Source: Stegostoma tigrinum (taxonomy: Eukaryota). From it: a DNA stretch of 64,000 bases. A program made the position numbers and the translations under genes. How positions within the stretch are numbered: the first letter of the stretch is position 1; each line of letters begins with the position of its first letter. The notes under the pieces are model-generated. The model did not search any database, was not told where the DNA came from, and was given only the letters and a program-made list of their open reading frames with translations. Positions 9,598 through 59,074 of this stretch are shown one piece after another. The stretch lies in assembly GCF_030684315.1 (NCBI RefSeq), contig NC_081366.1, positions 7,192,001 to 7,256,000 on the forward strand. Reading direction: 5' to 3'.

Positions 9598-9693
9598 AAC
9601 TCTGATGAAGGGTCTAGGCCCGAAACGTCAGCTTTTGTGCTCCTGAGATGCTGCTTGGCCTGCTGTGTTCGTCCAGCCTCACATTTTATTCTC
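9598..9693 (+). mobile_element. Short Penelope-derived element carrying a hammerhead motif
   Basis: CTGATGA-A-GGG-tctagg-CCC-GAAA-CGTC at 9602-9629, followed by the shared tail GATGCTGCTTGGCCTGCTGTGTTC. Same family as 57805-57932 and 38315-38460. Confidence 0.8.
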
Positions 9694-10792
9694 AACCAAG
9701 GGTCTGGCTGACATTGTGCACAAATTCATGCTAAGTGTGGTTTCGAAGCGTTTTGGTTTCTCTATCTGGACCATAAAAATCATGAGTGACCATGAAGCCT
9801 TTGTCATATAGGCGATTTATTTGAGGTACAGAGCAATTGGGAGGATTGTGCAGTCAATCTGAGTGATTGTGTAAATGAAGGATGCTGACCAGAGTCGTTT
9901 ACTCTTCATCTGCGCCTTTGAAAGTGTGGACAAAGAAAAGCCTACGTTTCATATTTGCTTCGGAAGGTTAGAAACAAATGACATGCTTCCAGATGCGATA
10001 AATATCACATGGAATCCATCTTTAATTATCCTGACATTAATTATGATGCAGTAAGCCTGCACCTGAGATTTGCATTCTGTGTGCTACCACTCAGCTCCTG
10101 CCATTTCTGGATATTCATGCCACAAGTGGGTCATTTTTGGTCTTGGACAATTTCACAACACACACATATGTGACTACTGTTTCAGAGCCAAGTCTCCTAG
10201 AACCAATACTTTTTCAAGTCTCACATCACTGCACATACTCTTATGAGTCGGACTGTCAAGCAGCCCATTTATTGCTCCCTTCCCCAATTGATGGAGTCTG
10301 TTTCGTCTGCCTTTATTCTCTGACTGGTCTAGCAGTTTTCCACTTTACATTTTCCAGATAGAATTGCTGGAATACTCCCACACCTTGCCTTGGTTCTGCA
10401 TTAAACCTATACCAACATCTTCTGAGAACCTTGGATCATCTTTGACTCTTTGTGGTGCATAGATTTACAATGACATATTACGCTTGGATTAAAAAAAAAC
10501 TGAGCTGTCATTTCACCTGCACTCGTTTGTGCATTTTTCTTATTAAGTATTTCCACCCTCTCCTCTTGGCATTTGACTGTCCAACCGAACATTCATCTGA
10601 CTTTACATTTATTGTAATGACCTCTCAACAATACTACTTTGATGTAAACATCAGTTTCTATGTGGATTATGTGATAGGACAATAATCAGTTAAATCTACT
10701 ATTTTTTGCTCTTTGGGGAACATGTCCAAAACATGTACTTCAATATTTTGTCATCACACACTGCCTCTTTTTATTTACTTCAGATAGCTAGT

Positions 10793-10978
10793 TCAGAAGT
10801 CACATGACACCAAGTTATACTCCAACAGGTTTCTTCGAAACCACAATCTTTTGGGGTGCTGCCCCTTAGTTAGCGCTCAGATAGCTTATGATTTCAAAGA
10901 AACTATGTAGATCATAACGTGGTGTCGTATGGTTTCTGGCGTTGTCCACACCAGCCCTATACCAGCATCTTCACATTC
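10793..10978. mobile_element. Degenerate palindromic short element, probably a second Penelope-derived family
   Basis: Inverted arms AGAAGTCACATGACACCAAGTTAT...TTTCTTCGAAACCA / TGATTTCAAAGAAAC...ATAACGTGGTGTCGTATGGTTTCT. Family assignment is from recalled shark repeats. Confidence 0.5.
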
Positions 10979-12527
10979 AGTTAAAATTCACTTATTCACT
11001 CTTGCATCAGAATGCCACGTTTATGTTATGCATTATTGACTTTCAGTTTAACTTATCAACTGATCAGAACGGAAGAGAAAGCGTGCACATACTTCATGCT
11101 CTTCGTGTTTTCTGTTGAGAGAAGATTATCCAATTCAGTTATTTTTATGCATTTTAATGCATTTCATGCATATGGTCATACACATCTCCAAGATATCATC
11201 AAAATTGTTCGTTCATTGATTTCTTCCATGCATTCTTTTCACATGATATATTCTATTTAACTGTATTTAAAGAAAATTATTGCCACTCCACGTCGTGTCA
11301 TTTTCCCTCTTTTTTAAAAAATATATTCTCAGAGGATTATCTAATTCAGTAGAATTGAAAACGACTCAGGAACGCTAAGGAATTATACAGGCCAAAAGTG
11401 CCATTCACAATATATTACAAAAGTGAATTCAGTTACAAAACTGGACGATTTTAAGTACGGCTAAGTTCTGTTTGTATGTTCTACATTAAAACGGGCATAA
11501 ATTTTTATGAAAAGTAATTGCCTAGATAATGCTAGACCTTGCCTTCTTTTGAACTTATTCCAAATCAACATTGTTGAGGCTTTGCTTTGTGTTCACCTCA
11601 ATAGTGCTGTACAGATCCTTTCAGTACCAAATAATTTCTTACTGAAAAGTAAATCTCCTTCTGGCACGACATAAGGCTGTGTACATTGTTTCCAATTATT
11701 TTTGCAATGAGTATAGATTTAATCTTATTTGTCCCTTGAACTTCACATTCATTTCACGTTAATTGTTTGAAACATCAATTATTATCCATTACTTTTTCAA
11801 TCCCAATTCCAGAAATAAACAATGCTTTCATTTGAATACAAAAGTTATCAGAGTAATTTCAGGGTTCTTTCATTCTTCAAAATGTTGTCTCCAAATAGAA
11901 CAAAACGTATGGTTGTCCTTTCACCAAAATTTACAGTACAGTTCTTCACCTGCAAGATTCCTGTCACCTCGACTGTGTTATCAGTGCTTGGGTAGTTCTT
12001 CAAATCGTTTAAAATAGAATACAATACCCAGCCTGCCTATGGATATAATCCCACTTAAAATCAGATTATAACTGTAAATTTCGGACTGTACATTTATTAA
12101 TGTGGTAATTGGAAGGTTTATGATCATTTTTAAGCTGCTGTCAGCAGAAATAATAAGTAATTTTCTGATCTGAGAATAGAATTGATCCAAGTTATGATGT
12201 TACACCAACTAGCAATTTAACATATTTCATTTTATGAAAGTCTTGACACCTGCAAGTAAATCAATTTGTCATTTCAAATTGCGTATTCCTTGCTTTGATT
12301 TTACTCAAACATTCTGATTGTTTATAAATGCATTAATATATAAAACACTATATTTAACCTTCATAAGTGCATTTGACAAAGCACCTGTTCTACCTTGTCT
12401 TTTCTCTAAGATGTTACCACAGTTTCCAAATTAGGAATTCAAATGGCATAACTGCAAACTTCAGTTTTTCTGAGCATTTTATGCCTGTTTTGAAATTAAA
12501 TTTCACAAACAAAGTTGCTGTTAGTTT

Positions 12528-12541
12528 TTTCTTTCTTTCAT

Positions 12542-12600
<59 letters not shown>
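12528..12600 (+). repeat. (TTTC)n microsatellite
   Basis: Direct reading. Confidence 0.95.
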
Positions 12601-13102: not shown

Positions 13103-15330
13103 GCGTAATGGGCCAGGCCAGACACTCTCAAAATATTTTAAGAAGATAGCCCAGATACTGCTTTTATTTTGTTTGTTTGTTTTGTTTTCCCTTATTTTAA
13201 AGGTAGATATGAAGTGTGTGTGTCAGAAGTGATGCAACTAGTCAAACCACTCGGCGTTAAGAAAAATAATTTAAATGAACACTGTGGTAAAAACACAAAC
13301 AAAAGAAAGAGGAATTTAGGATGACAACTATTGGAAACATGACCAAATACTAGATACAGTGATTATAACTAATTAACTGTTCGAATATAGCAACAATCCA
13401 CAATTCCGAATTTGGAAATTGTGGTAACATCTTAGAGAAAAGAAAAGGTAGAACACCCATTGGCAAAAAGGTAAATTCAAACACAGAGTCTCATCGGCCG
13501 ATTTCCAAACCAGGAGGGAACGCAAGAGGCATTTCAGAGAAAGTCACAGTTAGGAATCTTTTACTGAAGCTTGTGTTCCTTCTGGGACCCAAGTATCTTG
13601 TGACTGCTGCAGCTTAAAAAAAATAGAAAGCCTGATCTGGGAAAACTGGCCACTCCCATTCCATTGTTAAACTGTTTCCTTTTTAAAGAAAAAGACCTAA
13701 AAGCCTCTAAACCGTTGATGTCGGTCTGCTCTTCGATACACCTGTCTTTACAACCTCTTTTCAAGAAAACCCAGAACAAAGTAACCTTTTTAAAGTAATA
13801 TCATCACACCACCACCCCTTTAAAAAAACATCTATGTACAAAGATGACTTCATTTTAAAACCCTTAGTCTTACTCTAATAGTAAACTATAATACAGAAGC
13901 ATTGCATTTACACGAAGCATATAAGCATTCATTAGTACATTGTATTTCATTCTGCGTGCTCCTCCCATCGAAAGCCTCCACTTTTAATCATCCAATTCGC
14001 AACAACGCAGCAGCAATTGTGTTTTCTAGTCCTGCCACGTGTAAAAGTTTCAAATTGAATGGTTACAATAATACGCTTCATCCAAAGAGACTTTTATGAG
14101 TTCTGATCAGTATATATAATTGTCTCAGACACATTACTGACAACACATAAACCAAAAGAGCTGAGGACGTTGTAGATCAGAAACAAAAACAGAGTTACTG
14201 GAAAAGCTCAGCGGGTCTGGCAGTATCTGCAAAGAGAAATCAATGTTATTGTTTCAGGTCGAGCGACACTTTCTCAACATATAAATGTTGAAATGCTGTA
14301 ATACCAACACCAAGCTCAAGGTTTCCTTCTCAATCTTGGAATCTTTCTGTTGATGAGCATTTAACTTCCTGGAAAAATACCCGCTAGGTCTTTCTAGATT
14401 CTCATTAACTTCTTATGAGAGTCCAACACTAACACTCATATTACTCACATCAAAACATAACCACTGGGGAAGTGGTTAGCACAGTTTTCAGATTGTCAAA
14501 TGCCTTCTGACATGTTGCCATCCAATGAAGTTTTCTGCACTTCTTCAATAAGTCAGTCAGTGGAACAGCCACGCTGCTGGCATTTGGTATTAAGTTCTGA
14601 TAAAGCCCACTCAATCTCAGGAATTGTAGTACTGCTCTCTTCATCGATGATATGGGAAACTCTTCAATAACCTTTATTTTTAAATCCTGTGGAACCATCT
14701 GTTCATGTCTGCTAACATGGCACAGGAATGTGACTTGGGCTTTTGTAACTTCTCGCTTAGCCAGTTTTATCACTGTGCCTGTCTCGAAAAGTCAATTGTA
14801 TAAAACTGCGAACTGCTGTAAATGTTCCTTTCATACATAACTAAACATCATCAGGTTGTCGATGTACACCACGTAATTAGAAATCCAGAACGTCCCCTTC
14901 GTATTCATCCAGCTCCACACTTTGTTATCTTGGATTCTCCTGCATCTGCAGTTCCCACTATCTCTCATATGGTCACCAGCCACTTCTTTCCTTTAGCTGC
15001 TTTCTGAAATGAAAACAAAAGGGATGCTACATCCTTCTCTCGAAATTTACGCAATGCTTGGATACTTGTAACAATCAGGCCTTTAACAAGGATATTTTAG
15101 CTCATCATCAATATCCGCAACATTGTGTATGCCTTCATCCACTTAGGTCGACTTTACGGCCTAATTGCCAACTTTTGAAGTTCAAACTCTCTCTGTTTCT
15201 CCGTTCTTCTGTGAGGTCCTTCCTCTCCTTTTCATTTTGTTCTTCCAGGACCTTTCTTTCCTTTTCATTTTGGCTCTGCCATAGTTATTCCTGTGAGCTA
15301 AGGCTTCAGGCATCAGACTTGTGCCTTGTT
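13103..15330 (-). mobile_element. Heavily deleted Gypsy LTR retrotransposon remnant (LTR about 13103-13808, PPT, pol and gag fragments)
   Basis: ORF 14450-14773 resembles the Gypsy RT/RNase H connection (KAQVTFL, FLRLSGLYQ, PLTDLLKK, CQKAFDNLK). A purine tract at 13809-13828 (minus) is followed by TGTGA. Gag-like IQALRKFREKDV near 15030-15065. Homology to the paralogous unit breaks at about 13100. Confidence 0.7.
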
Positions 15331-15361
15331 CGTGGAGAACTCAGAGCCAGGAATGATTTTA

Positions 15362-15550: not shown

Positions 15551-16334
15551 ATGAAACTGCATATTTTTGGACTGGATTACAACCAGTGTGCTGCATTGGG
15601 GCGAAGTTATCTAATTTAATACAACCGCAAACAAGCATTCATAATGATTATGTGCATATGTGGCAGAGATCCGGTGCCAGAGAGGGTCTCAGTGACGTTT
15701 TACCATCCATTTAGCTCAAGGAAGGGAGATAGAAATTCTTTGGTTTCTTGTAGAATTATGAAGCATGGAGAATGGGATGTAAAGTACATCCGTGAGAAAA
15801 TATGACCCATGTTCAGCGTAGAAAAAGGCACAAAGAACGTTCTAATCTAAGGCTGCCCCTGTGTTTTTTTCCTGTTTTTGTGATGATGATTATGCAAGAT
15901 GGAGGAATCAATTTGATTTAGTTCACTTGTGGTCTAACAGCTAACATTCTGATCCTGTGAAATACTGAAATTTTCTGAAGAAGATGTCATGAAAGGATTA
16001 GAGACTAAATTACCATGGATGCTGGAGTCCAAGGTAGACAAACAGGAGGCTGAAAGAACACAGCAAACCAGGAAGGATCTGGAGGAAAGGAGCAGTCCTG
16101 AAGAAGAGTAATAGCGAAAACACTGATCTTTTTTCCTCCAGATCCTGTCTGGCTTTCTGTGTTCTTTCAATCTCTTAAAAAGGATTTCATGGCTTCACAG
16201 AAGTGTTGATGCAGTATCGTTATTTTGTTGCCTGGTTATTGAAGGAAATACGTCCATTGTGCTCGAGACCGCTAATTATTGCTTAAATAGTACCCACTGA
16301 ACTTGTTTTGCAAATAAAGCATCAGACAATACCG

Positions 16335-17596
16335 ATTACATTGTTGCAGGAAATGACCGCAAGTAGTGTCATTATGTCTGCATTTATTAAAAGGAATCAA
16401 CAAATGTTTTGAATTATATAAGGTGGAATGGATGAAATCTGAGCAGGTGTATTAAATCAAAAAAGTTAGAGGACGAGAGAGAAAAATATTAATGGAGATT
16501 ACTTTCTTAAAGATCTGCAGTTCTCAGAAAGATGGAGAGTACAAGTATCAAACTCTAAGCATAAGAAGGGCCCCCATTCCTGAAGGTAACATAGATTTCA
16601 AATTGTGGATGTAAATGCAAAACTTGTGAATAAACAAGTAAAACAACTATTAAATACATTAACTACTACAGATAATAAAATATAGAATAGCCATTGAGCG
16701 CAAAGATTTCACAGTGTTCACTCTCTTCAGACGCTGTCAGATCTGTTGATTTTCACCAGCACTTTCAGTTTAAAATTAGACAAAGGTAGGATAAGTAAGC
16801 CGAATGGAAACAATATTAACGAAACAGTAATGGATAATTAAAGAGGAACATACAAATGAATGGACTGATAGTTTGCTATTTACGGAACTGGATGCAAATT
16901 TCTATAAATGTATGGAAATAGGTAAGCTTACAGCTTTTAAAAGGCATCAGTGGTTGGGGGAATTGGGGTTGGGGTGTTGATCCATGATTGGGCAGGGTTT
17001 TGGCAAAAAGGTGGCAAATGGGACCAGGTAACTTTATCCTATCCTCACGACACAAATGAGCTAGACACAGGGTCTGCTTTCATGCTGCATAACTCTCTGA
17101 TTCTAACTGCAAATGGAATAACAGGGAGGAACTGGGAAAAGATATATCACATTCTTGAGTGAAGGAGTTCTGATAGCATTCGTGGAGCTGTGGGCTGACA
17201 AATGCGAACTGCTGATGGCTTTTATCCTGGTATTGTAAAATAAAAGGGTTGTGCAAATTCTGTGCATGTATCATCTGTTGCAATTCAAAGTATGCCATGT
17301 ACCTTGAGAAAAATTGACAGTCAATGTCAATCAGAGATAACAAGGTGTAGAACTGGATGGACACAGCAGGCCATAAATCCACTTGTTCTCTCCATCTTTC
17401 TGAGAACTGCAGATCTTTAAGAAAGTAATCTCCATTAATGTTTTTCTCTCTTGTCATCTCACTTTTTTGATTTAACACATCTGCTCAAATTTCATCCATT
17501 TCACCTTTTATATAATCCAAAACCTTCGTTGATTTCTTTTAATAAATGCAAAGAGATAATGACACTACTCACAGTTATTTCCTGAAACAATGTAAT
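16335..17596. repeat. Inverted duplication: 16335-16546 vs 17381-17596
   Basis: TAATGGAGATTACTTTCTTAAAGATCTGCAGTTCTCAGAAAGATGGAGAG is present exactly in reverse complement. The outer part of the arms is more diverged. Confidence 0.9.
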
Positions 17597-20500
17597 GTAG
17601 CTTTCATTGTCCAGAGAGCAGTTAAGACTCAATCACATTGTTGTGGGTCTGGAGTCACATGTCGGCCAGAGGAGGTGAGGATGGCAGTTTCCTCCCAGAT
17701 GGGTTTTCCCCCAAAAATCAGCAATGGCTTAATGGTCATCATTTGACACTCAATTCCAGATATTTATTGAATTCACTTTCCACCACCTGCCGTGGCAGGA
17801 TTCGAGCCTGGGTACCCAGAACATCATTGGGGCCTCTTGATTGACAGTTCAGTGATAATACCACCAGGTCATCGCCTCCCCGTCTGGGATTATCCCACTT
17901 AATAATCGATTCCCTTTAATAAACCAACTGAGAGTTCCTGAATAAATGTTGTCTTAAACCTAGTGTGAAGTAAACTGTGTTTATATTTACGTGTTAAAAT
18001 GCCCCAGAGAACAGTTAATGATCTGCTCTTGCATATTCTCAAAACAGACATCGATGGGTCACTTGGTACCAAGCATACCTGGGATAAGGTAACAATCTGA
18101 GAAGTTGAAGGAATTCAACTGTGTACTTATTGTGCGGCAGAGTAGTCTAAAGGGGCTTTTAAAAAAAAATACTGCCTGAGTATTACATTCTTCTGTTCTT
18201 ATTCTTAAAGATTTGTTAGATGAAAAAAAAGGAAAACTGAATTCAATGGGATGGTGCCAATGTGAAAGACAAAGCCTCGTATACCTTGGGTTTTACCCAA
18301 CAAGATGAGAAACCAAAGTCAAAACAATTGCACTGATATATTATTTTAATTAAATGCGACGGTATAAATAAGTCTTGCAAATAGCAGAATATGATTTTAT
18401 TTTTAAAAAGTGAAAAATTGAACAAAGTCTAATGTCTCATAAATGAATTTTGCAAATTTTACGCAATAAATGTTTCAAGAATGCTCTAGTAGAACACCGA
18501 AGAGTCAGGATAAAGGTAACGGTAGACAAGATGAAGATATAACTCCAACTCTCGCAGTGAAGGAAATAGTGGCTGACATCAATCAAAATGAAATGCCATT
18601 TTCAGCGGATATTATCTTTTGAATTTTTTGAATAAGTGACTGTTAATAATTTTCAAAAATGAGCTGAATAGTCGGATAAGCTAAGTAGGCGATCTCTGAA
18701 ATATATTGATAATCAGTGACATAAAAAAATCTGGAGTTTGGCCCACCAGTGGCCAATTCACAAGGCCAAAACATTAGGTTGTTTGTCCTATTCATTCACG
18801 GATTTGAACACCACCGATGGCGACATTTTCTTTCATCCATCCCGATTTGAATTTTACCTGGATGATTTACTTGATTTTTGTAATAAAATTATAGAAACAT
18901 CGAAAATGCTTGGGATTGTACCATTGCTGGGTTGTTAATCCAGAAAATCTCCTGTCACACTCAATAGAGGTTAATCTGAAATAGCCTACTCACCAGCCTG
19001 AACATTTTTTATTATTATTATTCATTCACGCGATGAGGGTGTCGCTAGCAAGGCAGCATTTATTGCCCAGAGAGCAGTTAATACTCAACCACATTGTTGT
19101 GGGTCTGGAGTCACATGTAGGCCAGAGGAGGTGAGGATGGCAGTTTCCTCCCAGATGGGTTTTTTCCAGGTGAAAAATCAAGGTGATTTCAGAGGGACAT
19201 TAACAGTAAATCATACTGATGTCGATCCGGAATCACATACAGGCTAACTTTTACCCATCCCTTTGTCTTCCCACCTATTATACACTTTATCTGGGCTCTC
19301 TCACCACATAGCATTTATCCTCACAACGACCCATATTCGGCTTATATGCCAACTATTATCTAACTGTGATCCATTCTGAATAAGAATCACTTGTCGGCAA
19401 GCCTTAACTCTGCCTTCTCTCCACAGATGCTGTCAGACCAACTGAAACTTTCCAGCAATTTCTGTTTGTGTTTCTCATATCCGGCATGTGCAGTTCTTTA
19501 TTCTATTTTACTTCTGTTTAACGTACCTAGGGGGTTTATATTACTCTGCAAAATAGCGGAATAGCATTAGCAAAATGGCCATTCAATCAACTGAGTTAAT
19601 CTGCCATCAGAATGATCACGGTTTTATTACTGCAGGATTTATCAATGGTCACATGAACACCAAGGCAGATCATAACATTTTCTCTTCTTATAGAACACTT
19701 TTAAGTGGTACTTGCATGACGCGAATATTACTTGTCACTTAAGAGGTCAGACTCAGAACTGACCAGTACATGAATTGCTTCAGTACCTGAGGAATGATAA
19801 AGATCACAAAAGAATCATGAATATACATGCCCATTTCTGACAACAAGACCATGCAGCAGGGTAAACTGATTGGTGCAAGGACACTACCCTGACACACTCG
19901 AGCAGTTCAAATTTTAGCCCAAATAGCATCATAAAACAATCATTACAACTTTCCTTTGAGCGAGGTACGACCATCCTTTTAGAATGACAAATCCCAAAAA
20001 AATGACAGAGTACAACCAGTGTCTATTCCGTCCGATGTGCCTGCACTGGTTTGTCAAATGAGCTTCATTACTCAGAATTAATCTCCTGCTTTCCACGACG
20101 ACCCCATCTTATCATTGCATGTTATCTATATCCAAATAACTATCCAACGCATTCTTGAATGTGTGAAATAAATCTGTCCTTGCCACAATTCTAGACTGTG
20201 CATTTCATTCCATCTACGTGACAAGTGAAAATTACTTTAAATATTCGCCCTCTCCTCTTTTTTACCCTTTACCAACAGGAAGCATTTTTACCTATCTACT
20301 CTATCAATCTCATTCATGATTTTTCAAAGTTCTACCAAATCCTTGTAAGCTTTCATCTCAAAATGATCCAAAATTCTTCAAATTGTTGTCATAACCAAAG
20401 TTCCTCATCCCTGATTTTCTTTTTTCAATTCTGCACTCTCTACAATGCATTTGCATCGTTCCGATGATACAGTCATAAATGTACACAATCCTCCAGATCA

Positions 20501-24471: not shown

Positions 24472-24472
<1 letters not shown>

Positions 24473-30244: not shown

Positions 30245-33200
30245 TTTATTTTCATTGGCGGTCCCTTGCTGACAAGGATGGCTCTCTTCCCTTCTCAGGG
30301 TGAGTCTGCAGATGACTGCACAGAGCAATGTGGCTGCTGCAGGCTTTGTTACACTTGAGAGAGAAGGTGCAGGAAGAGGTGGGTGGGGAGTTAATGTAGC
30401 AGCACGCTCCTTTTGCTGTTTTCATCTGGCTTACACTTTCTTACAATGGCAATTCTTGAAGTGCACAACACAACAACCTTGGGCCAGTGATTCCAAGATG
30501 TGTGTGGGAATGCTTCACTTCACCAGTGAGGCCTTGAGGGTAAAATTGATGCATTTCCTCTCTTCTCCTCGGGATCGAGTGCCATTTCAAAGCTGCGAAT
30601 AGAGCACCTGGTTGGGGATTCTCATTTCAGTCAAATGGATGATGTGTTAAGGCCATAATAGCTGATCAAGGGCAGTCAGTGATTTGCTGTTGGGGATATT
30701 GACCTGGTCAAGGATGCTCGTGTACCTTTGTTGCCAGCTGATTCACAGGATCTTGTACAGGTGGCATTGGTGGTTCTACTCAAGCAACGTGAGGGGTTTG
30801 CTGTTGACATTTCAGGTCTGAGAGCCGTACAAGAACGAGGGAACCACTCCACAGATCTGTAAACCGAACACCCTTTTCCTCAGGCGACTCTGGATCCCTT
30901 CCTCTACAGTTGATTGGTTCAACAGTACAATTCTGAAGTATTGGAAGTGATCAACATTCTCCAAGGACTCTACGTGGACCTTGATGATTAGAGGTTCCCT
31001 CCACAATGTCAGGCCATTTTGGCTGAGGACTTCGTTTTGTGGATGAGCAGGATGAGAACCATGCTCTCATATTCCCCCATAAATGTGTTGACGATGATCT
31101 GGAGTACATAATCTGAGACTGCACATGCGCAAGCATCATCTACATGAGAATCTTGTCAGTGATGAGGAGAAGCTACACAGTGAGGTAGATTGAGAACAGT
31201 GTTGCGATAATGACACTGCCTTGCTTGACACCATCCTGCACAGGGAATGGGTCAGTGGTGAAGCCATTTGTCATTTTTACGATTTCCATGTCTTCATGGA
31301 GCAGTTGCAGCATGATGCCAAACTTCATGGTGCAACCTAAGTGAATAATGATCCTCCGTGTGGCTTCCCAATAGAATGTATTAAAGGCATTTAAATGTTT
31401 GAAGAGGGTCCCGTACAGGGGTAGGTTTTCTTACTCTATATTTCTCCTTTAGTTGTCATGTGTCTCAATTCATATCCATTGTGCACCTCATGGTTGGAAG
31501 CCACATTGTAATTTTGGGAGGAGTTCCTCAGTCACATAGAGGACACAGTTGAGGAGGACCTTGGGGATGACTTTTCCAATGGTTGATAGCAGGGAGATCC
31601 CCTGTAGTTACTGCAATTGGACTTGTTCCCTTTTTTGAAAATGCTCACAATGGTAGCATCTTGGAGCACTGCTGGGTTGTTATCCTCCTTCCAGATAAGG
31701 CAGAAAACGACATAAAGCTTCAACAGGAGCTCTTTACCCCCACACTTAAATGCCTTAGTGGGGATACTGTCTGCTCCAGCAGCGTTGTTGTTGTTAAGCT
31801 GGCAGACAGCAGATTTCTCTGCTTCCTGCTGGGCTGGGCTGTTGCTGACATCCATTCAATGATGCTCCAATCAACGACAGACCATTGGTTGATGAGGACT
31901 CTGATGTGTCCCCCGTGTTGTTTGATGGTATCTTTATCTTTGGTAGGAGTCTCTCTGTCCTTGGCCAACTGTGGGGGCTGGGGGGTGGAGGGAGGGTGCT
32001 TTGGTATTTCGTCCATAGGTGGTCTCAAAAACACAGAACAAACCATGCATATCATGGTTGTCAGCATTCACTGGGGCTCCAGTGCTTTCTTCATATACCC
32101 GCTGAAATTTATCTTGCAGGTTTGTTGTTGAACCTCGGCCTTCAGTTACATTTTAGCCTGTCTTTCCTCTTCTGAGTTCCATCTGTTCTGAGGAAGGGTC
32201 AATGGACCTGAAATATTAATTCTGATTTCTCTTCACAGATGTTTAATGCTCTAAAGTGCCATGCTGTTCCAGCATAATATTTTTAGATTTTCTGATCATT
32301 CTCATCTAACCAGTTTTGGTGTTTCCTTGTTCAGTGACTGACCAGGTTTTTTTTTCAAGTATTGATGATGGTGGTCTCAAGGTCAGACCAGAGATTGTTG
32401 GGATTCCGTGACTCAACACAGTCAAAGGTGTTAGGTTTGTGGAGAGAATGTGGTTGCATGAGGCCATTTTTTCCCCTGCCTCTGAGTGCTTCAATGTTGA
32501 ACTTTTTATGGCACTACTTCTGCCGCCTCCACTGTGGCAGGGATAGATTTCTGTTGATCGTGGATGGGATCTTGCAATGCTCTGTCCAGCAGCCATCTGC
32601 TCTTTTCATGGTGAGAATAATGTTAATGTCATTCCGATTCCTCACTTTGACCATGACACAGTCAAGGAGGTGTCAGCGTTTGGATTATGGGTGTTGCCAT
32701 GTGTTCTTGTCCCTTTGGCAGGACAGTGTATTGCTGATGAGGATGTTGACTTAGCAGAATTTGGCCAGGAGAAGGGTGTCATTGGAGGTTTCCTTCCTTA
32801 CTGCCATTTTCCCAATTACACGATTACAAAGTTGTGCACTTTTGCTGACTGGTTTATTGGTGGACTTGTAGTTTATCCAATACATATAGCTGTGAAAGAG
32901 ATTGTTCAACATTGGAGTAGAAGTCCTCCTTAACTTCAGCTACTGCATCGAGCAACCGTGAATATGCACTGAAAACCATAACACACAGGTTCCAATCACA
33001 GATGAATCGGAGTGTCATGAAATATCCACTCCTTCTGCAGGGGAGTCTTTGAATTAGCCCACCAGTTCATTTGTGAAGATAAAGCCAACTCCATGGATGT
33101 GACACACTTTCTTGGTCTTGTCTTTCAAGAAAAATGCTTAACAACCAACCTGTTCTCTGAGCTGCCCTTCCTCTGCCATCGGGTTTCACTCAGGGCTGCG

Positions 33201-37965: not shown

Positions 37966-37984
37966 AAGGTGTCTTTGCTCTACA

Positions 37985-39480
37985 ACACCATCTAGGGCCC
38001 TTCCATTAACTATATAAGTCCTGTCCTTCATTTAACCAAAATGCAATATCTTGCGTTTGTCAAAATTAACTTGATCTTCCACTCCTCAGTTCATTGGTCC
38101 AAGAATCTAGATCCTTTTCTAATTTGGGATAACTTACTTCATTGTCAACTCTGCCATCAGCTTTCGTGTCATCTGCAAACTTACTAACCATGCCTCCTAA
38201 TTCTTCATCTAACCCGCTTATAAACACGACAAACATCAATAGACCCAGCACCAATCCCTGTAGAACATTATGCGTCACAGGTCTCCAATCTGAAAAAAAC
38301 AACCCTCTACCATCTACAGAGATAGGAGGAACTGTCGAAGAAGAGTCCCGACCCGAAACGTCAAGCTTTCCTGCTCCTCTGATGCTGCTTGGCCTGCTGT
38401 GTTCATCCAACTTCACACCGTGTTATCTCAGATTCTCCAGCATCGGCAGTTCCTACTATCCCGCTACCATCCACCTTCTGTTTCCTATTTTCAAGCTAAT
38501 TTTGTATCCAATTGACACACTTCCCCTGAATTCCATGTGATCCAACTTTACTAAGCAGTCTATCATCTTTAAACTTCTCAAATGTCCACATAGAAACATA
38601 AAAACATATACTATATGAGCAGAAGGAGGCCATTAGACCCTTCGAGCCTACTTCCCCATTCTTACAAACCTATAGCCTATAGCCAATAGCCATCTCCATC
38701 GTTGATTGTCTAACTTAATAGCCTAATCCTGCTTTCTCCACATAACTTTTTATCCCATTCGCCCCAGGTGCTATATGTAGTCACCTCTTGACTATATTTT
38801 TGTTTTGGCATTAACTACTTCCTGCAGTAATAAATTCCACAGGCTCACCACAATTTTGGTAAAGAAATGTCTACTCATCTCCGCCCTAAATCGTCTCCGA
38901 ATTCTCAAACTGTGAACCCTGGTTCGGTACTCACTCACCATCGTGAACATCCGTCCTGCATCTACACTGTCCAGTCCTGTTAGAATTTTAAAAAACATCG
39001 TCTACCACTCTGGGCTCATCACTCTTTTCATTTATTTCCTCAAATAAGTAAATCGTGTTTGTGAGACGCCATTTCCCACGGACCAAGACATGCTGATTCC
39101 CCGAAATCAGACCTTCCCTTTCCAAATGCTTTTGAATTCTATCACTCAGAATCCAGTCCAAAAACTGGGCTACCACGGATGTCAGGCTCATTAATTTGTA
39201 ATTCTCCAGCTTTCCTTGCAGTCTTCTTTAAATAAAGGCATAACATCAGCCATCACCAAGTCCTCCAGAACATTTACCGTGGCAACAGACGTTACAACTA
39301 TCTGGGGTGGAGGCCCTGCAATTTCTTCTCTAACTTCCCACAACTTTCTAGGGTACACTTGATCAGCTCCGAGACATTAATTCATCTTTATGCTTTTTTT
39401 TAAACCTCCAGCACCTCCTCTTCAGTAATGTAGACTGTTTTCAAGACATCAATATTTATTTCCCCGAGTTTGTTAGCCGC
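37985..39480 (-). mobile_element. Nested CR1 LINE fragments
   Basis: VLQGLVLGLLMFVVFI...SKFADDTK (38066-38300) and SLTSVV...NQHVLVRGK (38988-39191) are interrupted by a second CR1 3' end (38590-38990, TRVHSLRIR...FFTKIVVSLWN). Confidence 0.8.
38315..38460 (+). mobile_element. Short Penelope-derived element with a 5' inverted end, inserted in a CR1 remnant
   Basis: GAGATAGGAGGAACTG is the inverted copy of the 3' end CAGTTCCTACTATC. Damaged hammerhead (GAAGA...CCCGAAACGTC). CTACCATC on both flanks is a candidate TSD. Confidence 0.7.
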
Positions 39481-39679: not shown

Positions 39680-40282
39680 TGGCAAGTTTTGTGAAGATTT
39701 GTAGCTCAGGCTGAGGTTCTGGATGTACACACTAAAACAGCAGCTAAAGAACTTAAAAGACCCTATACAGACAACAAGCAAAACGAACGGCATTTACAAA
39801 ATACCTTGCAAGAACTGTGACAAACACTACATTGGACAAACTGGCAGAAAGCTAGCTACCAGGATACATGAACATCAACTAGCCACAAAACGACATGACT
39901 CACTATCACTAATACCCTTACATACAGATGAGGAAGGACACCACTTTGATTGGGACAACACATCCATCCTAGGACAAGCCAAACAGAGACACGCACGAGA
40001 ATTCCTAGAAGCATGGCATTCCAACCGGAACTCCATCAACAAACACATTGAGCCAATCTGCCATCCTCTGAGAAAAAGAACAGGAAATGACACCACCAAC
40101 ACAGGAAATGACATCAACACAGGAAATGACATCACCAACTCAAGGAACCCTAAACACAGAACTGGAAAGCCGGAAGTAACACCAGCACTTCACCGGAGGC
40201 TCACTGATGATGTTACCTAGGATGGTAACGAAACGTCTGGGAACAAATCTTCCAGCTCAGTGAATCAGCTTACATCTGGAAC
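39680..40282 (+). mobile_element. 5'-truncated Penelope-like element (GIY-YIG endonuclease end plus pLTR) with a short inverted terminal segment
   Basis: ORF 39723-40220 has GIYKIPCKNCDKHYIGQTGRKLATRIHEHQ...AREFLEAWHS (GIY-YIG). It is followed by a hammerhead motif. 39680-39727 reads as the inverted continuation of the pLTR end (minus strand TACATCCAGAACCTCAGCCTGAGCTAC). Confidence 0.88.
40200..40241 (+). ncRNA. Minimal type I hammerhead ribozyme motif (Penelope pLTR)
   Basis: CTCA-CTGATGA-T-GTTACC-taggat-GGTAAC-GAAA-CGTC-TGGG: intact core, perfect 6-bp stem II, palindromic ACGT stem III, GUC cleavage triplet and 4-bp stem I (one G-U). Confidence 0.8.
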
Positions 40283-40441
40283 AAAATAAAGACCCACTCT
40301 TTTGTGGACTGAGAAGAGGACAGCGCGACGGTGTTGGAGGTGGAAGGAAGATGTCGGGTTAGCTGTGCACCCTTGCAACAGATGGATCTTAATGCTGGTT
40401 TCAGCATAACACTGGTTCAGGGTAGCAGCCAACCTGCAACG

Positions 40442-41887
40442 CTGGCTGCAGCGAGTGCTCGTGCCCCGGGTCAGGGGGTCCGGAACACCAGTGTTTCCGT
40501 GAAGAAGGTGGATGAAGGTGCACCTGTGGACCGCACCTTCTTCGTGAAGAGGGCCCTGTTGGACTGTTGTGGGTTCACTGCTGTGGACATTTACTGCCTG
40601 CAGGATTTCCCTGGAGGAGGTTTTTATGATGTAACCTTCAGGAGCGCCAAGCTTTGCGAGCACTTCCAAGAAGTTTTGAAGGAGAAAGGAGGTGAGGGCC
40701 CCCTCTCTGTACTGACCGCTGTCCCACTGTTCATGATGCCAGTGCAGAGGAACCGTATGGTAACTGTACACATGTACAATCTGCATGTGCCAGCAGTTGG
40801 TGTCCTGACCCTCCTCAGAAGGTATGTGAAGGTGGAAGAGGAGCTAACCAACGTCGTGGACCCCTTCAGGATCTGGACCAGTAAGAGGCAGGTCAGGGTG
40901 ACGCTGAGGATGGGCTCGGACGGGAACATCGTACACCCACCGTCCAGCTTCGCGATCGGTGGGAGCAAGGGCGACCTGACCTACGCAGGGCAACATAAAG
41001 TCTACCATGCCTGTGATAGGTCAGGTCACGTGGCGGCCGACTGCAAAGCCACCATCTGCAGGAACTGCAGGGAGGAGGGAAACCTTGCAAAGGATTGCCC
41101 AAAAGAAAAAAGCTGCAACCTTTGCGGGAAAGCGGGCCACCTCTACAGGGCATGCCCGCAGCTGGGGACCACATTCGCCCAGGTCGCCGGCAGGGGCAAT
41201 GCAGGGCAAGCCCACCCGGAGGAGAGGAAGGCACCAGGGCCCTGCAAGGACCCCCCTAGTGTGCCAGAGGGCCAGGTCGTGCAGGAGGGCCCAACCCCGC
41301 AGGATGGACCTGAGGCCAGCAAAGCGCCCCTGCAGGCTCCACTCTCCCCCGACAACCCGGAGTCAATGGAGGAGGTGAGAGGTGACCCAGGGGAGTGGAC
41401 GACGGTCTGGAAAGCAAGGAGGAAGGCATGCCGGCAGGCCCAGGTGGGAAAAGGCAGCTACAGGGGAGCTATAAGAGCTCCTCTGACGAGGGAGATTCGG
41501 AGGAGGGCCACCCAAAGCAGAAGCTAAAAATCTCAAGAGAGGAGGAAAGCAGCACCCCACTCCCAGGTGACGGGAGGCATCTTGAGGCTCCCTCTGACAT
41601 CCAGCCACACGCTGCTGGGGCCCTGGAGGGCCCCCCGGAACTTTCAGGCAGGAAGGAGGAAACAGCATGTCCCCAGCCTGACCCAGAGCCGGACTGTCCT
41701 GCCTCCGCACCCCCAACGGGGAGTTGCCACCCGGGAAGGCAGCATGGATGGTTTCCTGAGCCCGGAGAGCGTCCAGCAGTTAGCCCGGGCAATGGGCATG
41801 AAGGGACAAATGGAGGGGCTGGACCTTGGACTTGGGGAGGGTACTGCGGTCACTGCCCACAATGGGGTTACGAGTTGCGAGCATTAA
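40442..41887 (+). pseudogene. Tx1 ORF1 (ZCCHC3-like, three CCHC knuckles), frameshifted
   Basis: FYDVTFRS...DPFRIWTSKR...HPPSSFAIG followed by three knuckles (the first two damaged, CNLCGKAGHLYRAC intact). The likely start codon reads CTG. The frame shifts near 41450 and again near 41700-41730. Confidence 0.8.
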
Positions 41888-44800
41888 TGTGCACAAAATC
41901 AAGTCCACTGCAAGATGTGTGTCCACGTTGGCCTACCTGACCACCATCAAGGCAGACCTCCTGTTTCTGCAGGAGTGTGGGATACCGCACCTCAGCAGGT
42001 ATGGGAAACGGTCAGGCACCTGGACCTGTGAGCCTTCGATCTGGTTGGGGGGTAACGACTGTCGGTCCTCAGGCCTGGCTATTCTGCTGTGGGGGCGCAA
42101 CTTCACCATTTCTCAAGTTCAGGAGGTGGTGGGGGGTGCGCCTCCTAGCGGCTGATGTCACCTACAGGAATGCTCCCCTGAGGCTGATCAACATGTACGC
42201 CCCAGCGGTACAGAGTGAGCGGTTGGCTGTCCTGCAGCGGCTTCCACCCCTGCTGGCTACGTCCAGGCCAGTCATCCTAGGCGGAGACTTCAACTGCATC
42301 ATCAATGCAGATGGAAGATCCGGCGTGGGGACAGCGGGTGGGGGGAGTCAACTGGACGTCACGTCCAGATTCCTGATGGGCACGGTGAAGGACACCAAGC
42401 TGCTCGACGTCTCCAGCGCCCCTGCAGACGGACCGCAGCGGAGATACACCTGGTCGCGGCCAGACAGGTCTACCCGCTCAAGGATAGACTTCCTGTTTGT
42501 GTCACGGGCGTTTTTGGTCAGGTCCACTAGCGTCGAGCCGGTGTTCTTCTCTGACCACTGCCTCCTGCTGGCCGACTGTCACTTACAGGACCACCAGAAG
42601 GCCGGCAAGGGGACGTGGAAGCTCAACACGATTCTGTTGACCCCAGAGAACATCGAGGAGCTTAAGAGGGATTACGCCGGTTGGAGAACCATGAAACCCC
42701 TCTTTGAATCTCCGGGCGACTGGTGGGAGACAGTGAAGGAGAACATCAAGAGGTTCTTTGTCCTCAAGGGTGTTCAGAAGGTGAGAGAGAGGCGGGGAAA
42801 GCTGTCGCAACTCCAGAAAAGGGTGCAGAACCTGCTCCTCCTGCAGTTGATGCGGGTCGATGTCACAGAGGACCTCCGCGAGGTGAGGGGCCAGCAAGCC
42901 TCGCTCTTCACCGCGGAGGCCTCCAGGATAATCTTCCATTCCAGGGTCCGCTCCGTGCAGCAGGACGAGACGTGCTCATGTTTCTTCTTTCAGAAGGTGC
43001 ACAAAGAGAGCTCTGTGCTTTGCCGGCTGAAGGAGGATGGCAGCTCGGTGATATCAGCATGTCCCAACATTTTGAGGATCAGCAGATCATTCTATGCCGG
43101 ACTGTACGACACAAAGCCCATGGACAGCACGGCCTCCGAGTCGTTCCTGTCGTCTATCACGGAGGTCTTAGATGATGGCACGAGGGAGTGGCTGGGCCAG
43201 CCAATATCCCTGGACGAGCTGACCAGAGCCCTCAAGTCCTTGGAGAGGAATAAGACTCCTGGGAGCGACGGTTTACCGGGCGATCTGTATTCTGCTCTGT
43301 GGGACCTGGCCGGCCAGCACCTGCTGGAGGTGTACGATAGTGCGCTTCGGGCAGGGGAAATGTGCAAGTCCATGAGGAAGGGCATCATCACCCTCATTTA
43401 CAAGAGGAAGGCGGAGAGGGAAGAAATTAAGAATTGACATCCCATTTCACTATTGAACGTGGACTACAAAATCCTGGCCAATGTCATAGCCAACAGGGTC
43501 AGGTCTGTCCTGGAGTCAGTGATTCACCCTGACCAAACCTGTGCTGTGCCAGGCAGGAAGATCGCTGAGAGCCTAGCGCTCATCAGGGATATGATCGCCT
43601 ACGTGCAGGACAGGCGGGTGGACACCTGCCTCGTCAGCCTGGACCAGGAGAAGGCCTTCAACAGGGTCCCTCATGCTTACATGAGGGACATCCTCTCCAA
43701 ATTGAGGTTCGGGGGGGCATCCGCAATTGGATCCAGCTGCTCTACACCAACATCGTTAGCGCAGTCTTGATCAACGGGTGGGAATCAGACAGTTTTCCCG
43801 TCAGATCTGGAGTCAGGCAGGGCTGCCCGCTCTCTCCTGCCTTGTTCGTGTGCTGTGTGGAGCCCTTCACCACATCCATCAGGAAGGACGTGGGCCTGAA
43901 GGGCGTGACTATCCCAGGCAGCGGAGGCCTTCAGGTCAAGACCTCCCTGTACATGGATGATGTCGCCGTCTTCTGCACCGATCGTTGGTTGATGAGTAGG
44001 CTGTTGGACATCTGTGGCCAGTTTGAACTGGCCTCGGGTGCCAAAGTCAATAGGGGTAAGAGCGAGGCCATGTTCTTCGGGAACTGGGATGACTGCTCCT
44101 TCATCCCCTTCACCATCAGGACAGACTACCTGAAGGTGCTGGGTGTTTGGTTTGGTGGAGCTGGGGCATGCACTAAGACCTGGGAGGAGCGTATCACCAA
44201 ACTGAAGCAGAATCTGGGCAGGTGGACGCTCCGGTCCCTCTCCATTGCTGGTAAGAACCTGGTTGTCAGGTGCAAGGGGCTTTCGGTACTGTTGTATGTG
44301 GTGCAGGCCTGGCCTATTCCCTGGACCAGCGCCGTTGCGGTCACCCGGGCCATCTTCCACTTCATTTGGGGGTCGAGGATGGACCAGGTCCGCAGACACA
44401 CCACGTACAAAGACCTGGAAAATGGGGGAAAGGGCATCCCGAATGCCACCCTTGCCCTGATGGCTACCTTTGTGTGCGGCTGCATCAAGCTGTGCGTAGA
44501 TCCTCAGTGCACAAACACCAAGTGTCACTACTTACTGATGTTCTGCCTGTCCCCAGTGTTGCGAAGGATGGGCCTGGCCTCGTTGCCGCGGAATGCTCCG
44601 AGTAGTTGGACCGTCCCATACCACCTGTCCTTCGTGGAGAAATTTTTGAAATGAAACACCTTTGACCACAAGGCCGTCAGGCAGTGGTCAGCATGTAGTA
44701 TCCTCGAGACCCTTCGGGAAAAGGAGAGGGTGGATCCTGTCATGTGGTTCGCCATGCAGACTGCCAAAGTCATTTGGCAGAATGCCTCATTGCCAGAACT

Positions 44801-45292
44801 TTCAAACAAGCACAAGGACATTGCTTGGCTGGTGGTGAGAAGGCTCTGCCAGTGAGATCCTTTATGCATGCCCGGAATCTCTGCACCACCACATGCTGCC
44901 CTTGAGGTGGCTGCGGGGTGGGGGGGTGGGGGGATGAGACTGTCGATCACCTCCTTCTGGAGTGTGCCTATGTGCAGGAGGTCTGGAGGGGGATGCAGTG
45001 GCATTTGTCGAGGTTCGTCCCGAGCAGCTCCGTGACGCGGGACTCCGTGCTCTACGGGCTGTTTCCCGGGACGCACACCGAGACCAACATCAACTGTGCC
45101 TGGAGGGCCATCAATGTGGAGAAAGACGCTCTTTGGTCTGCCCGCAACTTGCTGGTCTGCCAGCTGAAAGAACTGACCCTGACCGAGTGTTGCAGACTGG
45201 CACACTCCAAGGTCCAGGACTACGTGCTGAGGGATGCGCTAAAGCTTGGGGCAACCGCCGCCAAAGCGCGGTGGGGAAAGACCACCGTATGA
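41862..45292 (+). pseudogene. Tx1 ORF2 (APE endonuclease, reverse transcriptase, zf-RVT), disrupted
   Basis: MGLRVASINV, FLQE, GGDFN, SRIDFLF and SDH (endonuclease); KTPGSDGLP, NVDYKIL, DQEKAFNRV, GVRQGCPLSP and YMDD (RT); ETVDHLLLEC (zinc finger). Stops at 43437 and 44654 and frameshifts near 42135, 43715 and 44845. Confidence 0.9.
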
Positions 45293-45566
45293 AACCCCTC
45301 ATCCAGAACAGAAAAAAAGGGTCGTATCTTTTAACTGGGCTCAGCTGGCGCCAACCCCAACTGGTCAGTGGGCCAACGGGGACAGTGCGGGGAGACGACT
45401 GCAGGGGTATTTTCTTTGCTTTGTTTTTTTTCTTTTTTTTCCTTTAGTTGGTGTACGTACCCCCTGGGAAACCCGGAGCGGCTTGCATGACTGGGTAGGT
45501 GTATAAATATGTTTTAATTTTTGTACATCCTATGAATAAAGTATATTTTTACAAATACAAAAAAAA

Positions 45567-45620
45567 GGTGACGAAACGTCTGAAAATGAACCTTCCAGCT
45601 CAGCGAGCAAACTTATATCC
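45567..45620 (+). mobile_element. Second Penelope pLTR segment beginning at the 3' strand of hammerhead stem II
   Basis: GGTGACGAAACGTCTGAAAATGAACCTTCCAGCTCAGCGAGCAAACTTATATCC aligns ungapped with 40224-40277 (about 13 mismatches in 54). Confidence 0.75.
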
Positions 45621-57804: not shown

Positions 57805-58180
57805 TGAGATAATGGGAACTGCAGATGCTGAAGAATCCAAGATAACAAAGTGTGAAGCTGAATGAACACAGCAGGCCAAGCAGCATCTCAGGAGCACAAA
57901 GGTTGACGTTTCGGGCCTAGACCCTTCATCAGAGAGGGGATGGGGAGAGGGTTCTGGAATAAATAGGGAGAGAGGGGGAGGTGGTCCGAAGATGAAGAGA
58001 TGCAGTGGGAGAGAGTTCTCCTGAGGTTGGTCTGGAGGGAGGAGGGGGAACTTCTTCAGGTTAGGCATCCCTGGAAGAGGCTTCGCAGTGAGGTTAAAAT
58101 TATGATCAGAGATAATGGGAACTGCAGATGCTGGAGAATCCAAGATAACAACGTGTGAAGCTGGATGAACACAGCAGGCC
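57805..58180 (-). mobile_element. Penelope-derived element with hammerhead and tandemly repeated terminal segment
   Basis: Hammerhead core on the minus strand at 57905-57932, identical to 9602-9629. The segment GAGATAATGGGAACTGCAGATGCTG...CAGCAGGCC occurs twice (57805 and 58108). Confidence 0.8.
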
Positions 58181-58509
58181 TTGCTGCTTGGGAAACATAC
58201 CGTCGTAGATCGGCTAGAGACTATAAATCCAAAACTAAAGGAATGATTAGTCAAGACGTTTCAAAAAAATAATTTTAGCTATAAAGGCCCCGTATCTGAA
58301 TCTGTGTAACTTTCAAGCTAAAACAATTGGCTGACAGCTAAAATAAAAATGAGTTAAGATCTGATAGCTCTTACATCGACATGGCTAGAAAATCAGATTG
58401 ATTGGATCCAGAATATTGAATGGCTTGTGATAGATAGGAAAGGACGGACTCTAAGAATAAAATAAAACGCGAGAGGAACGAGTTAGTCTGCTAATTGATA
58501 TTTGTGTTG

Positions 58510-58710
58510 CCGATTAAAAGGGTAATCCCGCCACGGTACTACCGAACACATGCAGCTTTCTTACTAGAGGGAATCGAATGGTGGTGGTAGTTTCATGTGA
58601 GGATCACAACGACTCAGACGATGCGACAGATTGATAAGGAAGGTCCTCCATGCTGACCTCAGGCATAGTGGGGGCTGCTCACACGCACAAGCTGCCAGCC
58701 AACTGAGCTA
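58510..58710 (-). mobile_element. tRNA-headed SINE remnant
   Basis: The minus strand begins TAGCTCAGTTGGCTGG (A-box-like). A second head fragment lies at about 60875-60929. Confidence 0.5.
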
Positions 58711-59074
58711 CTCGACACCAAAATTCTGTTCGTTCGATACGAAGGGTTGAACTATTTTCAGGGATAAAGCAAGCAGTTTCGGTCGATACGGTCATCCGAT
58801 AATAAAAGACTACCTAGAAGAAAACTTCATTGAATGTTTTCGAAGTTGTTCATTTGAATAATAGACTTTGCAGCTAATCAGAGAGCTGGCTATGATTAAA
58901 TCTGGTAATAGCAGCTAGATAGGATTAGTTGATGGTCTCATCAGAAACAAAAAGAGATATTAGTGCAAAACTCAGCAGATTTACCAGGAATTGTGAGAAG
59001 AAAGCTGAATTAATGTTTCGGGTCCAGTGACTATTCATCAGAATACTTACAGAATTTTTCCAGCATTTACGTAT

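What the first reader, a model, noticed from the sequence alone, without database searches (positions are those of the whole stretch)
9598..59045. Dispersed family of minimal hammerhead-ribozyme elements throughout a protocadherin cluster
Seen: a hammerhead consensus CTGAnGA-n-[stem II]-GAAA-CGTC is intact at 9602-9629 (+), 40204-40237 (+) and 57905-57932 (-). Degenerate versions occur at about 14245-14278 (-), 19376-19420 (+), 32188-32220 (+), 37671-37698 (-), 37863-37897 (+), 38335-38362 (+) and 59012-59041 (-). Stem II sequences differ between families but stay paired (GGG/CCC, GTTACC/GGTAAC, GGTC/GACC), which is covariation. All carry one extra base after A9 and a loopless palindromic ACGT stem III. 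Established: Penelope-like elements carry minimal type I hammerheads thought to work as dimers, and non-autonomous retrozymes exist in animals. Inference: these are 100-400 bp non-autonomous Penelope-mobilised ribozyme elements of several subfamilies, at more than one per 10 kb here. They would usually be masked as anonymous repeats. Stem I is imperfect in the 9602 and 57905 copies.
Basis: partly seen in the sequence, partly recalled or inferred. Interest (0 to 1): 0.75.

Follow-up and report, generated by a model that had tools for sequence, protein, structure and literature searches.

The report
Penelope ribozyme stubs among shark protocadherins
The scattered hammerhead-ribozyme motifs are real; one sits at the end of a broken Penelope-like jumping gene, and the rest are likely short, mostly decayed end-pieces of such genes, a kind already described, rather than a self-spreading ribozyme family.

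Summary
Three exact minimal-hammerhead cores are present (9602+, 40204+, 57905-; 3 against 0.03 by chance). The other seven listed sites are decayed homologues. They are termini (pLTRs) of Penelope-like retrotransposons (PLEs) in a shark-type genome. The 40204 motif follows a GIY-YIG endonuclease fragment. That insertion has an inverted tail and an 11-nt target duplication, and was later split inside the ribozyme by a 5.3-kb Tx1-like LINE. The others are 90-380-nt stubs with PLE hallmarks: two fixed 3' ends 34 nt apart, inverted 5' pieces and target duplications. Their coding parent was not found here. None is a tandem array, so the retrozyme test fails. 'All carry ACGT' holds for 4 of 10 sites, and stem II shows no compensatory covariation. 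Cervera and de la Pena (2014) described this motif class, mostly as single copies from truncated PLEs. The stubs start at the ribozyme's front edge, and some contig junctions start exactly at the cut site, a possible record of cleavage in vivo. This scan noted the same stubs, footprints and Tx1 targeting many times elsewhere in this genome. New member of a known kind; low interest.

The parts
9597..9687 (+). Family B pLTR stub, 91 nt; exact hammerhead core 9602-9629; starts just before C3, ends at the short 3' end; 9-nt target duplication 9588-9596 / 9688-9696; absent from the paralogous position near 29220
14152..14274 (-). Family C pLTR relic; 11-nt target duplication (1 mismatch) 14141 / 14275 puts its 5' end inside the core, so the first half of the core is missing; 9/12
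14901..14968 (+). Family B tail fragment without ribozyme, ending at the long 3' end
16000..16178 (.). Gives the spurious Rfam microRNA hits
16685..16771 (+). Faint family C relic, core not recognisable (7/12)
17329..17373 (-). Family B tail fragment without ribozyme
19376..19513 (+). Family C relic; tail clearly homologous, core 9/12, stem II lost
32188..32304 (+). Family C relic; core 12/12 with H17=U, stem II 5 pairs, ATAT in place of ACGT, stem I 3 bp
37585..37698 (-). Older family B relic; core 12/12, stem II 3 pairs, ACAT
37735..37969 (.). Family C fold-back: inverted arm 37735-37861 (longer at its 3' end) and direct arm 37864-37969 with broken core (10/12)
38315..38463 (+). Family B stub: about 20-nt inverted tail piece, then pLTR 38335-38463 (core 10/12, C3 and U4 lost); target duplication 38307 / 38464
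39680..39726 (-). Inverted tail of the family A (Poseidon-type) pLTR at the 5' end of the insertion
   Evidence: (loose ends and opposite-strand joints at 39725-39727)
39727..40220 (+). 5'-truncated 3' end of a PLE ORF: GIY-YIG endonuclease piece; 87-91% identical to Stegostoma tigrinum proteins P0001/P0002 (P0002 also carries the RT family PF00078)
40204..40237 (+). Family A hammerhead core; 40224-40239 is either the left copy of a 16-nt duplication made by the LINE or the start of the LINE's leader; the 3' arm of stem I runs into LINE leader sequence
40224..45566 (+). About 5.3-kb L1/Tx1-like LINE (ZCCHC3-type RNA-binding and zinc-knuckle ORF1, AP endonuclease, RT, poly-A) inserted inside the family A hammerhead, with a pLTR-like leader up to about 40282
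45567..45620 (+). True right half and 3' end of the family A pLTR; 11-nt target duplication of the whole PLE insertion 39669-39679 / 45621-45631
57806..58189 (-). Family B internally deleted partial tandem: pLTR tail (58189-58110), parent-body piece (about 58105-58000), pyrimidine-rich 3' segment (about 57994-57936), pLTR with exact core 57905-57932 and long 3' end at 57806
58925..59043 (-). Family C relic; core 12/12 with H17=U, stem II 3 pairs, ACAT

Best explanation
The motifs are minimal hammerheads in the terminal repeats (pLTRs) of Penelope-like retrotransposons, shown for the 40204 copy and likely for the rest, and they likely reached this locus as one-off, dead-end insertions that now decay as passengers. 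Steps: (1) A parent PLE is transcribed with its 5' end close to the ribozyme (inferred from where the copies start). (2) The PLE protein cuts target DNA and starts reverse transcription inside the RNA at one of two sites about 34 nt apart at the pLTR tail (two fixed ends shown in contigs; mechanism taken from the Anolis PLE, PMC11167929). (3) If it starts on the upstream pLTR it reaches the RNA's 5' end after 90-130 nt and leaves a stub that begins at the ribozyme. If it starts on a downstream pLTR it runs into the ORF and leaves a 5'-truncated copy such as 39727-45620 (products shown, route inferred). Copying from the second strand of the cut would give the inverted pieces and fold-backs (inferred). 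(4) Most stubs lack the RNA downstream of the tail that the protein binds, so they would not move again (inferred). (5) The ribozyme would work on the parent RNA, as a dimer through the ACGU palindrome or with protein help. A lone genomic copy is predicted to fold into an inactive hairpin in which the core pairs with itself. (6) A Tx1-like LINE later inserted into the one Poseidon-type hammerhead (shown by the flanking target duplication).
For: GIY-YIG ORF piece runs into the 40204 core, best hits shark proteins, some with an RT family. The insertion is bounded by an 11-nt duplication starting with ATT; 0 of up to 300 random flank pairs match as well. Inverted tail at its 5' end. An ATG in the core opens a short frame, as in the Anolis PLE whose ORF starts at stem II. 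Family B 3' ends pile up at 57806 and 57840/41, 34 nt apart, the '30-40 bp tail' of PLEs (PMC8557442, PMC11167929); window copies end at or near one or the other. Target duplications at 5 of 11 insertions examined (9602, 14245, 16010, 38335, family A) and an empty paralogous site for 9602. No shared sequence upstream of about -2 among 5 family C and 5 family B copies (2 of 20 pairs nominally significant). CpG-type decay of ACGT. Monomer folds pair the core with the GUC segment in the 9602, 57905 and 40204 copies. No tandem arrays. Cervera and de la Pena report thousands of single min-HHRs per genome, 'probably related to truncated PLEs' (PMC4209133).
Against: No RT or endonuclease sequence was linked to families B and C here (tblastn; one search found nothing), so their PLE parentage rests on end structure, and their clade is untested. 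The shared 5' start and very high contig depth would also fit a short self-transcribed element. The 57905 copy keeps the body piece downstream of the tail and could be a mobile internally deleted derivative. No duplication was found at 6 of 11 insertions. No genome and no RNA reads were available. Family B's majority stem I is only 2 bp, shorter than the 4-5 bp described for min-HHRs, so it is unclear that this family cleaves at all.
Confidence: 0.8

Rival explanations
1. The stubs are an independent non-autonomous family (SINE-like or monomeric retrozyme) transcribed from their own copies and moved in trans by PLE proteins.
For: Uniform starts at the ribozyme edge, own target duplications, very high contig depth. 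pLTR sequence alone sufficed for mobilisation in trans in Adineta (PMC3846280). Retrozymes are proposed to derive from pLTRs and include monomer copies (bioRxiv 10.64898/2026.07.22.740005).
Against: No tandem arrays. Hammerheads are minimal, not canonical. Most stubs end at the tail and lack the downstream RNA required in vitro (PMC11167929). Ends vary from copy to copy (fold-backs, inverted pieces, a start inside the core at 14274). The family A copy is a truncated coding PLE.
Confidence: 0.12
2. Some copies have been kept by the host as ribozymes that act on protocadherin pre-mRNA.
For: The exact core at 57905 lies on the protocadherin sense strand.
Against: Its stem I is 1 bp after private changes at 57901 and 57903. 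4 of 10 listed sites are sense and 6 antisense. The 9602 stub is missing from the paralogue. Older copies decay in core and stems.
Confidence: 0.03
3. Families B and C are hammerhead look-alikes that no longer cleave, or are kept for another job (start codon context, promoter, structure), so the 'ribozyme' label is only a motif match.
For: Stem I of 2 bp in the family B majority. No Rfam hammerhead family matches. Low or no activity of min-HHRs in vitro (PMC4209133); 8 of 9 Xenopus dimers did not cleave (bioRxiv 2026). Cleavage was not needed for insertion in vitro, and no RNA reads began at the cut site in Anolis (PMC11167929).
Against: Junctions that start exactly at N1.1 in 5 of the 12 rows shown in table 5c (114 more not shown). 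A variant at the free position 7 occurs with the rest of the core kept (loose end at 57936).
Confidence: 0.2

Closest known systems
Minimal hammerheads (min-HHR) in pLTRs of metazoan PLEs (Cervera and de la Pena 2014, PMC4209133)
   Same: Core, extra base between A9 and 10.1, G10.1-C11.1 pair, palindromic 15.2-16.2, no helix III, several families per genome, mostly single dispersed copies tied to truncated PLEs (Xena, Poseidon, Neptune in fish, coelacanth, Xenopus, reptiles).
   Different: Sharks are not named in the two of four parts read (supplements not opened). Family B has a 4-bp stem II and only a 2-bp stem I.
Poseidon element of Anolis carolinensis, PAc (Frangieh et al. 2024, PMC11167929) and EN+ PLE insertion structure (PMC8557442, PMC3846280)
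   Same: RT + C-terminal GIY-YIG, start codon at the ribozyme, two 3' ends 30-40 nt apart, ATT at two of the five target duplications, 5' truncation, inverted 5' piece, partial tandems.
   Different: Here most insertions are terminus-only stubs beginning at the ribozyme. Some contig junctions begin at the cut site, whereas no Anolis RNA reads were found to begin there.
Metazoan non-LTR retrozymes (PMC7229834; bioRxiv 10.64898/2026.07.22.740005)
   Same: Type I hammerheads, non-coding, a few hundred bases, linked to PLE pLTRs; reported in one chondrichthyan genome.
   Different: Defined by tandem units each with a complete (usually canonical) hammerhead and by circular RNAs. Here copies are single, minimal, and carry PLE insertion ends.
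Tx1 LINEs that target other transposons (crocodilian Tx1-Mar, Tx1-8_Crp, Tx1-9_AMi; PMC4494074)
   Same: A Tx1-like LINE sitting inside another mobile element.
   Different: The target here is a PLE hammerhead and the LINE carries a target-like leader. One copy in this window; preference was not tested here.

Membership tests
min-HHR of PLEs | Conserved core C3-A9, G12-A15.1, U16.1, H17 | tested here: met
   12/12 in 6 of 10 listed sites (9602, 32188, 37671, 40204, 57905, 59012)
min-HHR of PLEs | Extra base between A9 and 10.1, G10.1-C11.1 closing stem II | tested here: met
   9602, 40204, 57905; G-U at 32188; broken in several older copies
min-HHR of PLEs | Palindromic 15.1-16.1, no helix III | tested here: met
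   ACGT in 4 of 10, ATAT in 1; decayed in 5
min-HHR of PLEs | Helix I of about 4-5 bp | tested here: inconclusive
   4 bp at 40204 (with LINE leader; 3 bp against the far half), 2 bp in 9602 and the family B majority, 0-3 in relics
min-HHR of PLEs | Self-cleavage as dimer or with protein | not testable with these tools
   Only an indirect genomic footprint at N1.1
EN+ PLE insertion (family A) | pLTR adjoining an RT + GIY-YIG ORF | tested here: met
   GIY-YIG piece 39727-40220 (Pfam E 4.5e-4, below the curated cut-off); 87-91% identical to shark proteins, P0002 with RT; ORF continues upstream in other copies
Penelope/Poseidon clade (family A) | No zinc-finger linker between RT and endonuclease | tested here: met
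   By eye on P0002 and P0004 against the definition in PMC8557442; no tree built
EN+ PLE insertion (families B, C) | pLTR adjoining an RT + GIY-YIG ORF | tested here: inconclusive
   No coding match in the window; search with the 65-residue body piece found nothing
EN+ PLE insertion (families B, C) | 30-40-nt optional tail, inverted 5' piece, partial tandem, target duplication | tested here: met
   Family B ends 34 nt apart; inverted pieces at 16010, 37735, 38315; partial tandem at 57806-58189; duplications at 4 of 10 B/C insertions
Neptune clade (families B, C) | Zinc-finger linker in the ORF | not tested
   No ORF in hand; named only in earlier scan notes
Non-LTR retrozyme | Tandem array of two or more units, each with a complete hammerhead | tested here: not met
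   No such array in the window; the 57806-58189 repeat holds one core
Non-LTR retrozyme | Canonical type I hammerhead with helix III and loop contacts | tested here: not met
   No helix III; no Rfam hammerhead match at E up to 5
Non-LTR retrozyme | Linear and circular monomer RNAs | not testable with these tools
   No RNA holder listed

The most novel reading that the evidence does not exclude
The mass of stubs is a fossil map of the Penelope template RNA. One class of 5' ends sits at the front edge of the ribozyme (RNA start) and a second exactly at the cut site, so the hammerhead does cleave in the shark germ line and the cleaved RNA is used as template. That would answer the open question of what PLE hammerheads do. 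The Tx1-like LINE adds a retroelement that targets this ribozyme.
Probability: 0.35. Interest if true: 0.55.

Novelty: new member of a known kind. Interest (0 to 1): 0.2.

Why it matters
As motifs, little: minimal hammerheads in PLE termini, scattered by the thousand, were described in 2014. The residual value is mechanistic. The role of PLE hammerheads is called unclear (PMC8557442), and cleavage was dispensable in vitro (PMC11167929). Copies that start at the cut site would make cleavage in vivo testable from genome sequence alone. Nothing here ties the motifs to protocadherin regulation.

Tried and rejected
No whole genome is held, so genome-wide counts and subfamily trees could not be made. 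Rfam gave no hammerhead family; its microRNA hits at 16049-16171 are the fold-back stub. A pattern scan of metagenome contigs found nothing. No RNA holder listed. The search for a coding parent of family B with the 65-residue body piece found none among 44 candidates, which is weak evidence. Earlier-findings look-up by sequence was empty. The near-match at 378-406 is rejected: it is the ADD codons of an RT fragment (CR1 label recalled). Hits at 24209 and 27472 are chance-level. Reading 40224-40277 and 45567-45620 as one long target duplication is disfavoured: 15/16 identical then 26/38, and diverged contigs carry 40252-40398 joined to the LINE. A 16-nt duplication remains possible. Covariation test not significant; the alignment forces a fifth pair with a 2-nt loop on family B, whose stem II is 4 bp. 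In one search the C3 position of the 37671 copy was entered one base off, which affects only the -1/-2 identity figure for family B. Contig depth was not used as a copy number.
Full report
Observation. A strict scan finds exactly these three, against 0.03 in 30 shuffles; with one mismatch per half-core it finds 6 against 3.6, so degenerate sites need homology evidence. Self-blastn and nhmmer supply it (the profiles include the copies themselves). There are three groups: A (40204 and a half copy at 45567), B (9602, 57905, 38335, 37671, plus 16098 and tail fragments) and C (14245, 19376, 32188, 37864, 59012). B and C cross-match at E about 1e-6; A matches neither. Rfam has no hammerhead hit. Three tandem protocadherin ORFs lie on the minus strand. 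The best protein hits are carpet sharks.

Grading the motifs. Six of the ten listed sites keep all 12 core letters, but only 9602, 32188, 40204 and 57905 also keep stem II; ACGT survives in four. ACAT and ATAT are what CpG decay of ACGT would give (inference). The covariation claim fails. GGG/CCC and GGTC/GACC are the same stem, and the covariation score on 11 aligned B/C rows is reached by 34 of 500 shuffles. For family A, 91% of contig depth in run X1 reads G at 40227, so the majority pair is U-G. A and G both occur in runs X10 and X12, a one-sided change that keeps the pair (83 further rows not shown). Stem I is 1-4 bp. The three exact copies fold as monomers into a hairpin that pairs the first half of the core with the GUC segment, a predicted inactive state.

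Family A is a truncated PLE. An open frame ending at 40220 holds a GIY-YIG piece that is 87-91% identical to Stegostoma proteins, one of which also carries an RT family. Contigs show the ORF continuing upstream of 39727 in other copies, and show that 39680-39726 is an inverted pLTR tail. An 11-nt duplication beginning with ATT (39669 / 45621, one mismatch; 0 of up to 300 random flank pairs) brackets everything from there to 45620. So 45567-45620 is the real end of this pLTR, which the read-through protein P0001 also indicates. The 5.3-kb L1/Tx1-like LINE between (the Tx1 label is recalled from the ORF1 domains, no tree) inserted inside the hammerhead. Its front carries a pLTR-like leader: diverged contigs in X1 and X2 span 40252-40398, while X10 and X12 have no cover beyond 40287. 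Whether 40224-40239 is target duplication or leader is open.

Families B and C have PLE insertion ends. In four runs laid on 57780-58125, 3' ends gather at 57806 and 57840/41 in three runs (X1, X5, X7), 34 nt apart. That is the 30-40-nt optional tail which Frangieh et al. map to two internal reverse-transcription starts (PMC11167929, parts 1-2 of 4 read). The 9602 stub has a 9-nt duplication and is absent from the paralogue. 38315-38463 has an inverted tail piece. 16000-16178 and 37735-37969 are fold-backs with one arm longer at its 3' end. 57806-58189 is an internally deleted partial tandem; no listed contig bridges its internal junction. Duplications were found at 5 of 11 insertions. Such inverted, tailed and partial-tandem forms are described for EN+ PLEs (PMC8557442 and PMC3846280, passages). 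Against this reading: no coding parent for B or C was found.

Where copies start. Upstream of about -2 from C3 the window copies share nothing. Among the 15 joints shown (169 more not shown, and X1 was too deep to count fully), 10 leave at 57927-57936, around C3, and 2 at 57900. In table 5c, 5 of 12 rows shown continue from 57900 with AGCT and then leave, which is exactly N1.1, the first base after the predicted cut. This suggests two kinds of template 5' end: an RNA start at the ribozyme's edge, and a cleaved end. Contigs cannot show RNA ends, and stalling at the hairpin base is not excluded. In Anolis no RNA reads began at the cut site, and cleavage needed protein and was not needed for insertion (PMC11167929).

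Mechanism. Reverse transcription that starts at the tail of the upstream pLTR would run off the RNA after 90-130 nt and leave a stub starting at the ribozyme. A start at a downstream pLTR gives 5'-truncated coding copies. PAc needs the first 172 nt of its ORF on the template, and all stubs here but 57905 lack the equivalent region, so they would be dead on arrival (inference). The ribozyme's work, if any, is on the parent RNA.

Comparison. Cervera and de la Pena (PMC4209133, parts 1-2 of 4 read, supplements not opened) list the extra base after A9, the G10.1-C11.1 pair and the palindromic 15.2-16.2 as features of min-HHRs, found in thousands of single copies in coelacanth and Xenopus. Retrozymes are defined by tandem units (PMC7229834, passages; bioRxiv 10.64898/2026.07.22.740005, parts 1-3 of 5, supplements closed, one chondrichthyan included whose families I could not see); that test is not met. 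Tx1 elements that target other transposons are known (PMC4494074, passages). PMC6155905 was seen as passages. Searches for shark or cartilaginous-fish hammerheads and for Tx1 with Penelope listed no paper on these elements, judged from listings; the unseen supplements may hold them. Earlier notes of this scan report the same stubs, cut-site footprints and Tx1 targeting on other pieces of this genome. They are not independent support; the leader idea and the 'dead-end stub' wording come from them.

Verdict. Real, correctly linked to Penelope, but an ordinary by-product of PLE retrotransposition and not a separate ribozyme element. New member of a known kind, interest 0.2.

Noticed in passing
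window 40224-45566 (+): Near full-length L1/Tx1-like LINE inserted inside the Poseidon-type hammerhead, with a pLTR-like leader; frames broken by shifts.
   Followed up: partly
window 5445-7826, 24992-27544, 52794-55214 (-): Three tandem single-ORF protocadherins (793-850 aa stop to stop) with long paralogous flanks 65-75% identical.
   Followed up: partly
window 16335-17596, 21075-22939, 12386-13455: Three non-coding elements with long terminal inverted repeats (about 215, 180 and 54 nt), likely non-autonomous DNA transposons; the second begins and ends with TATAAC/GTTATA.
   Followed up: no
window 62900-63846 (-) and about 330-460 (+): RT fragments of a CR1-like LINE (label recalled); the one at 378-406 mimics a hammerhead core through its ADD codons.
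   Followed up: partly
window 57953-57990 (-): A polypyrimidine run ending in CAG lies about 20 nt upstream of the family B core; it resembles a splice acceptor, and PLE introns are reported to end near helix I in Drosophila virilis (PMC4209133).
   Followed up: no
window 57806-57841, table 5: The two best-supported joints are opposite-strand junctions between the long and short 3' ends of family B, the same form as the inverted tail piece at 38315.
   Followed up: no
window 40080-40139: 18-nt tandem repeat (3 copies) in the last codons of the Poseidon-type ORF, variable among copies.
   Followed up: no
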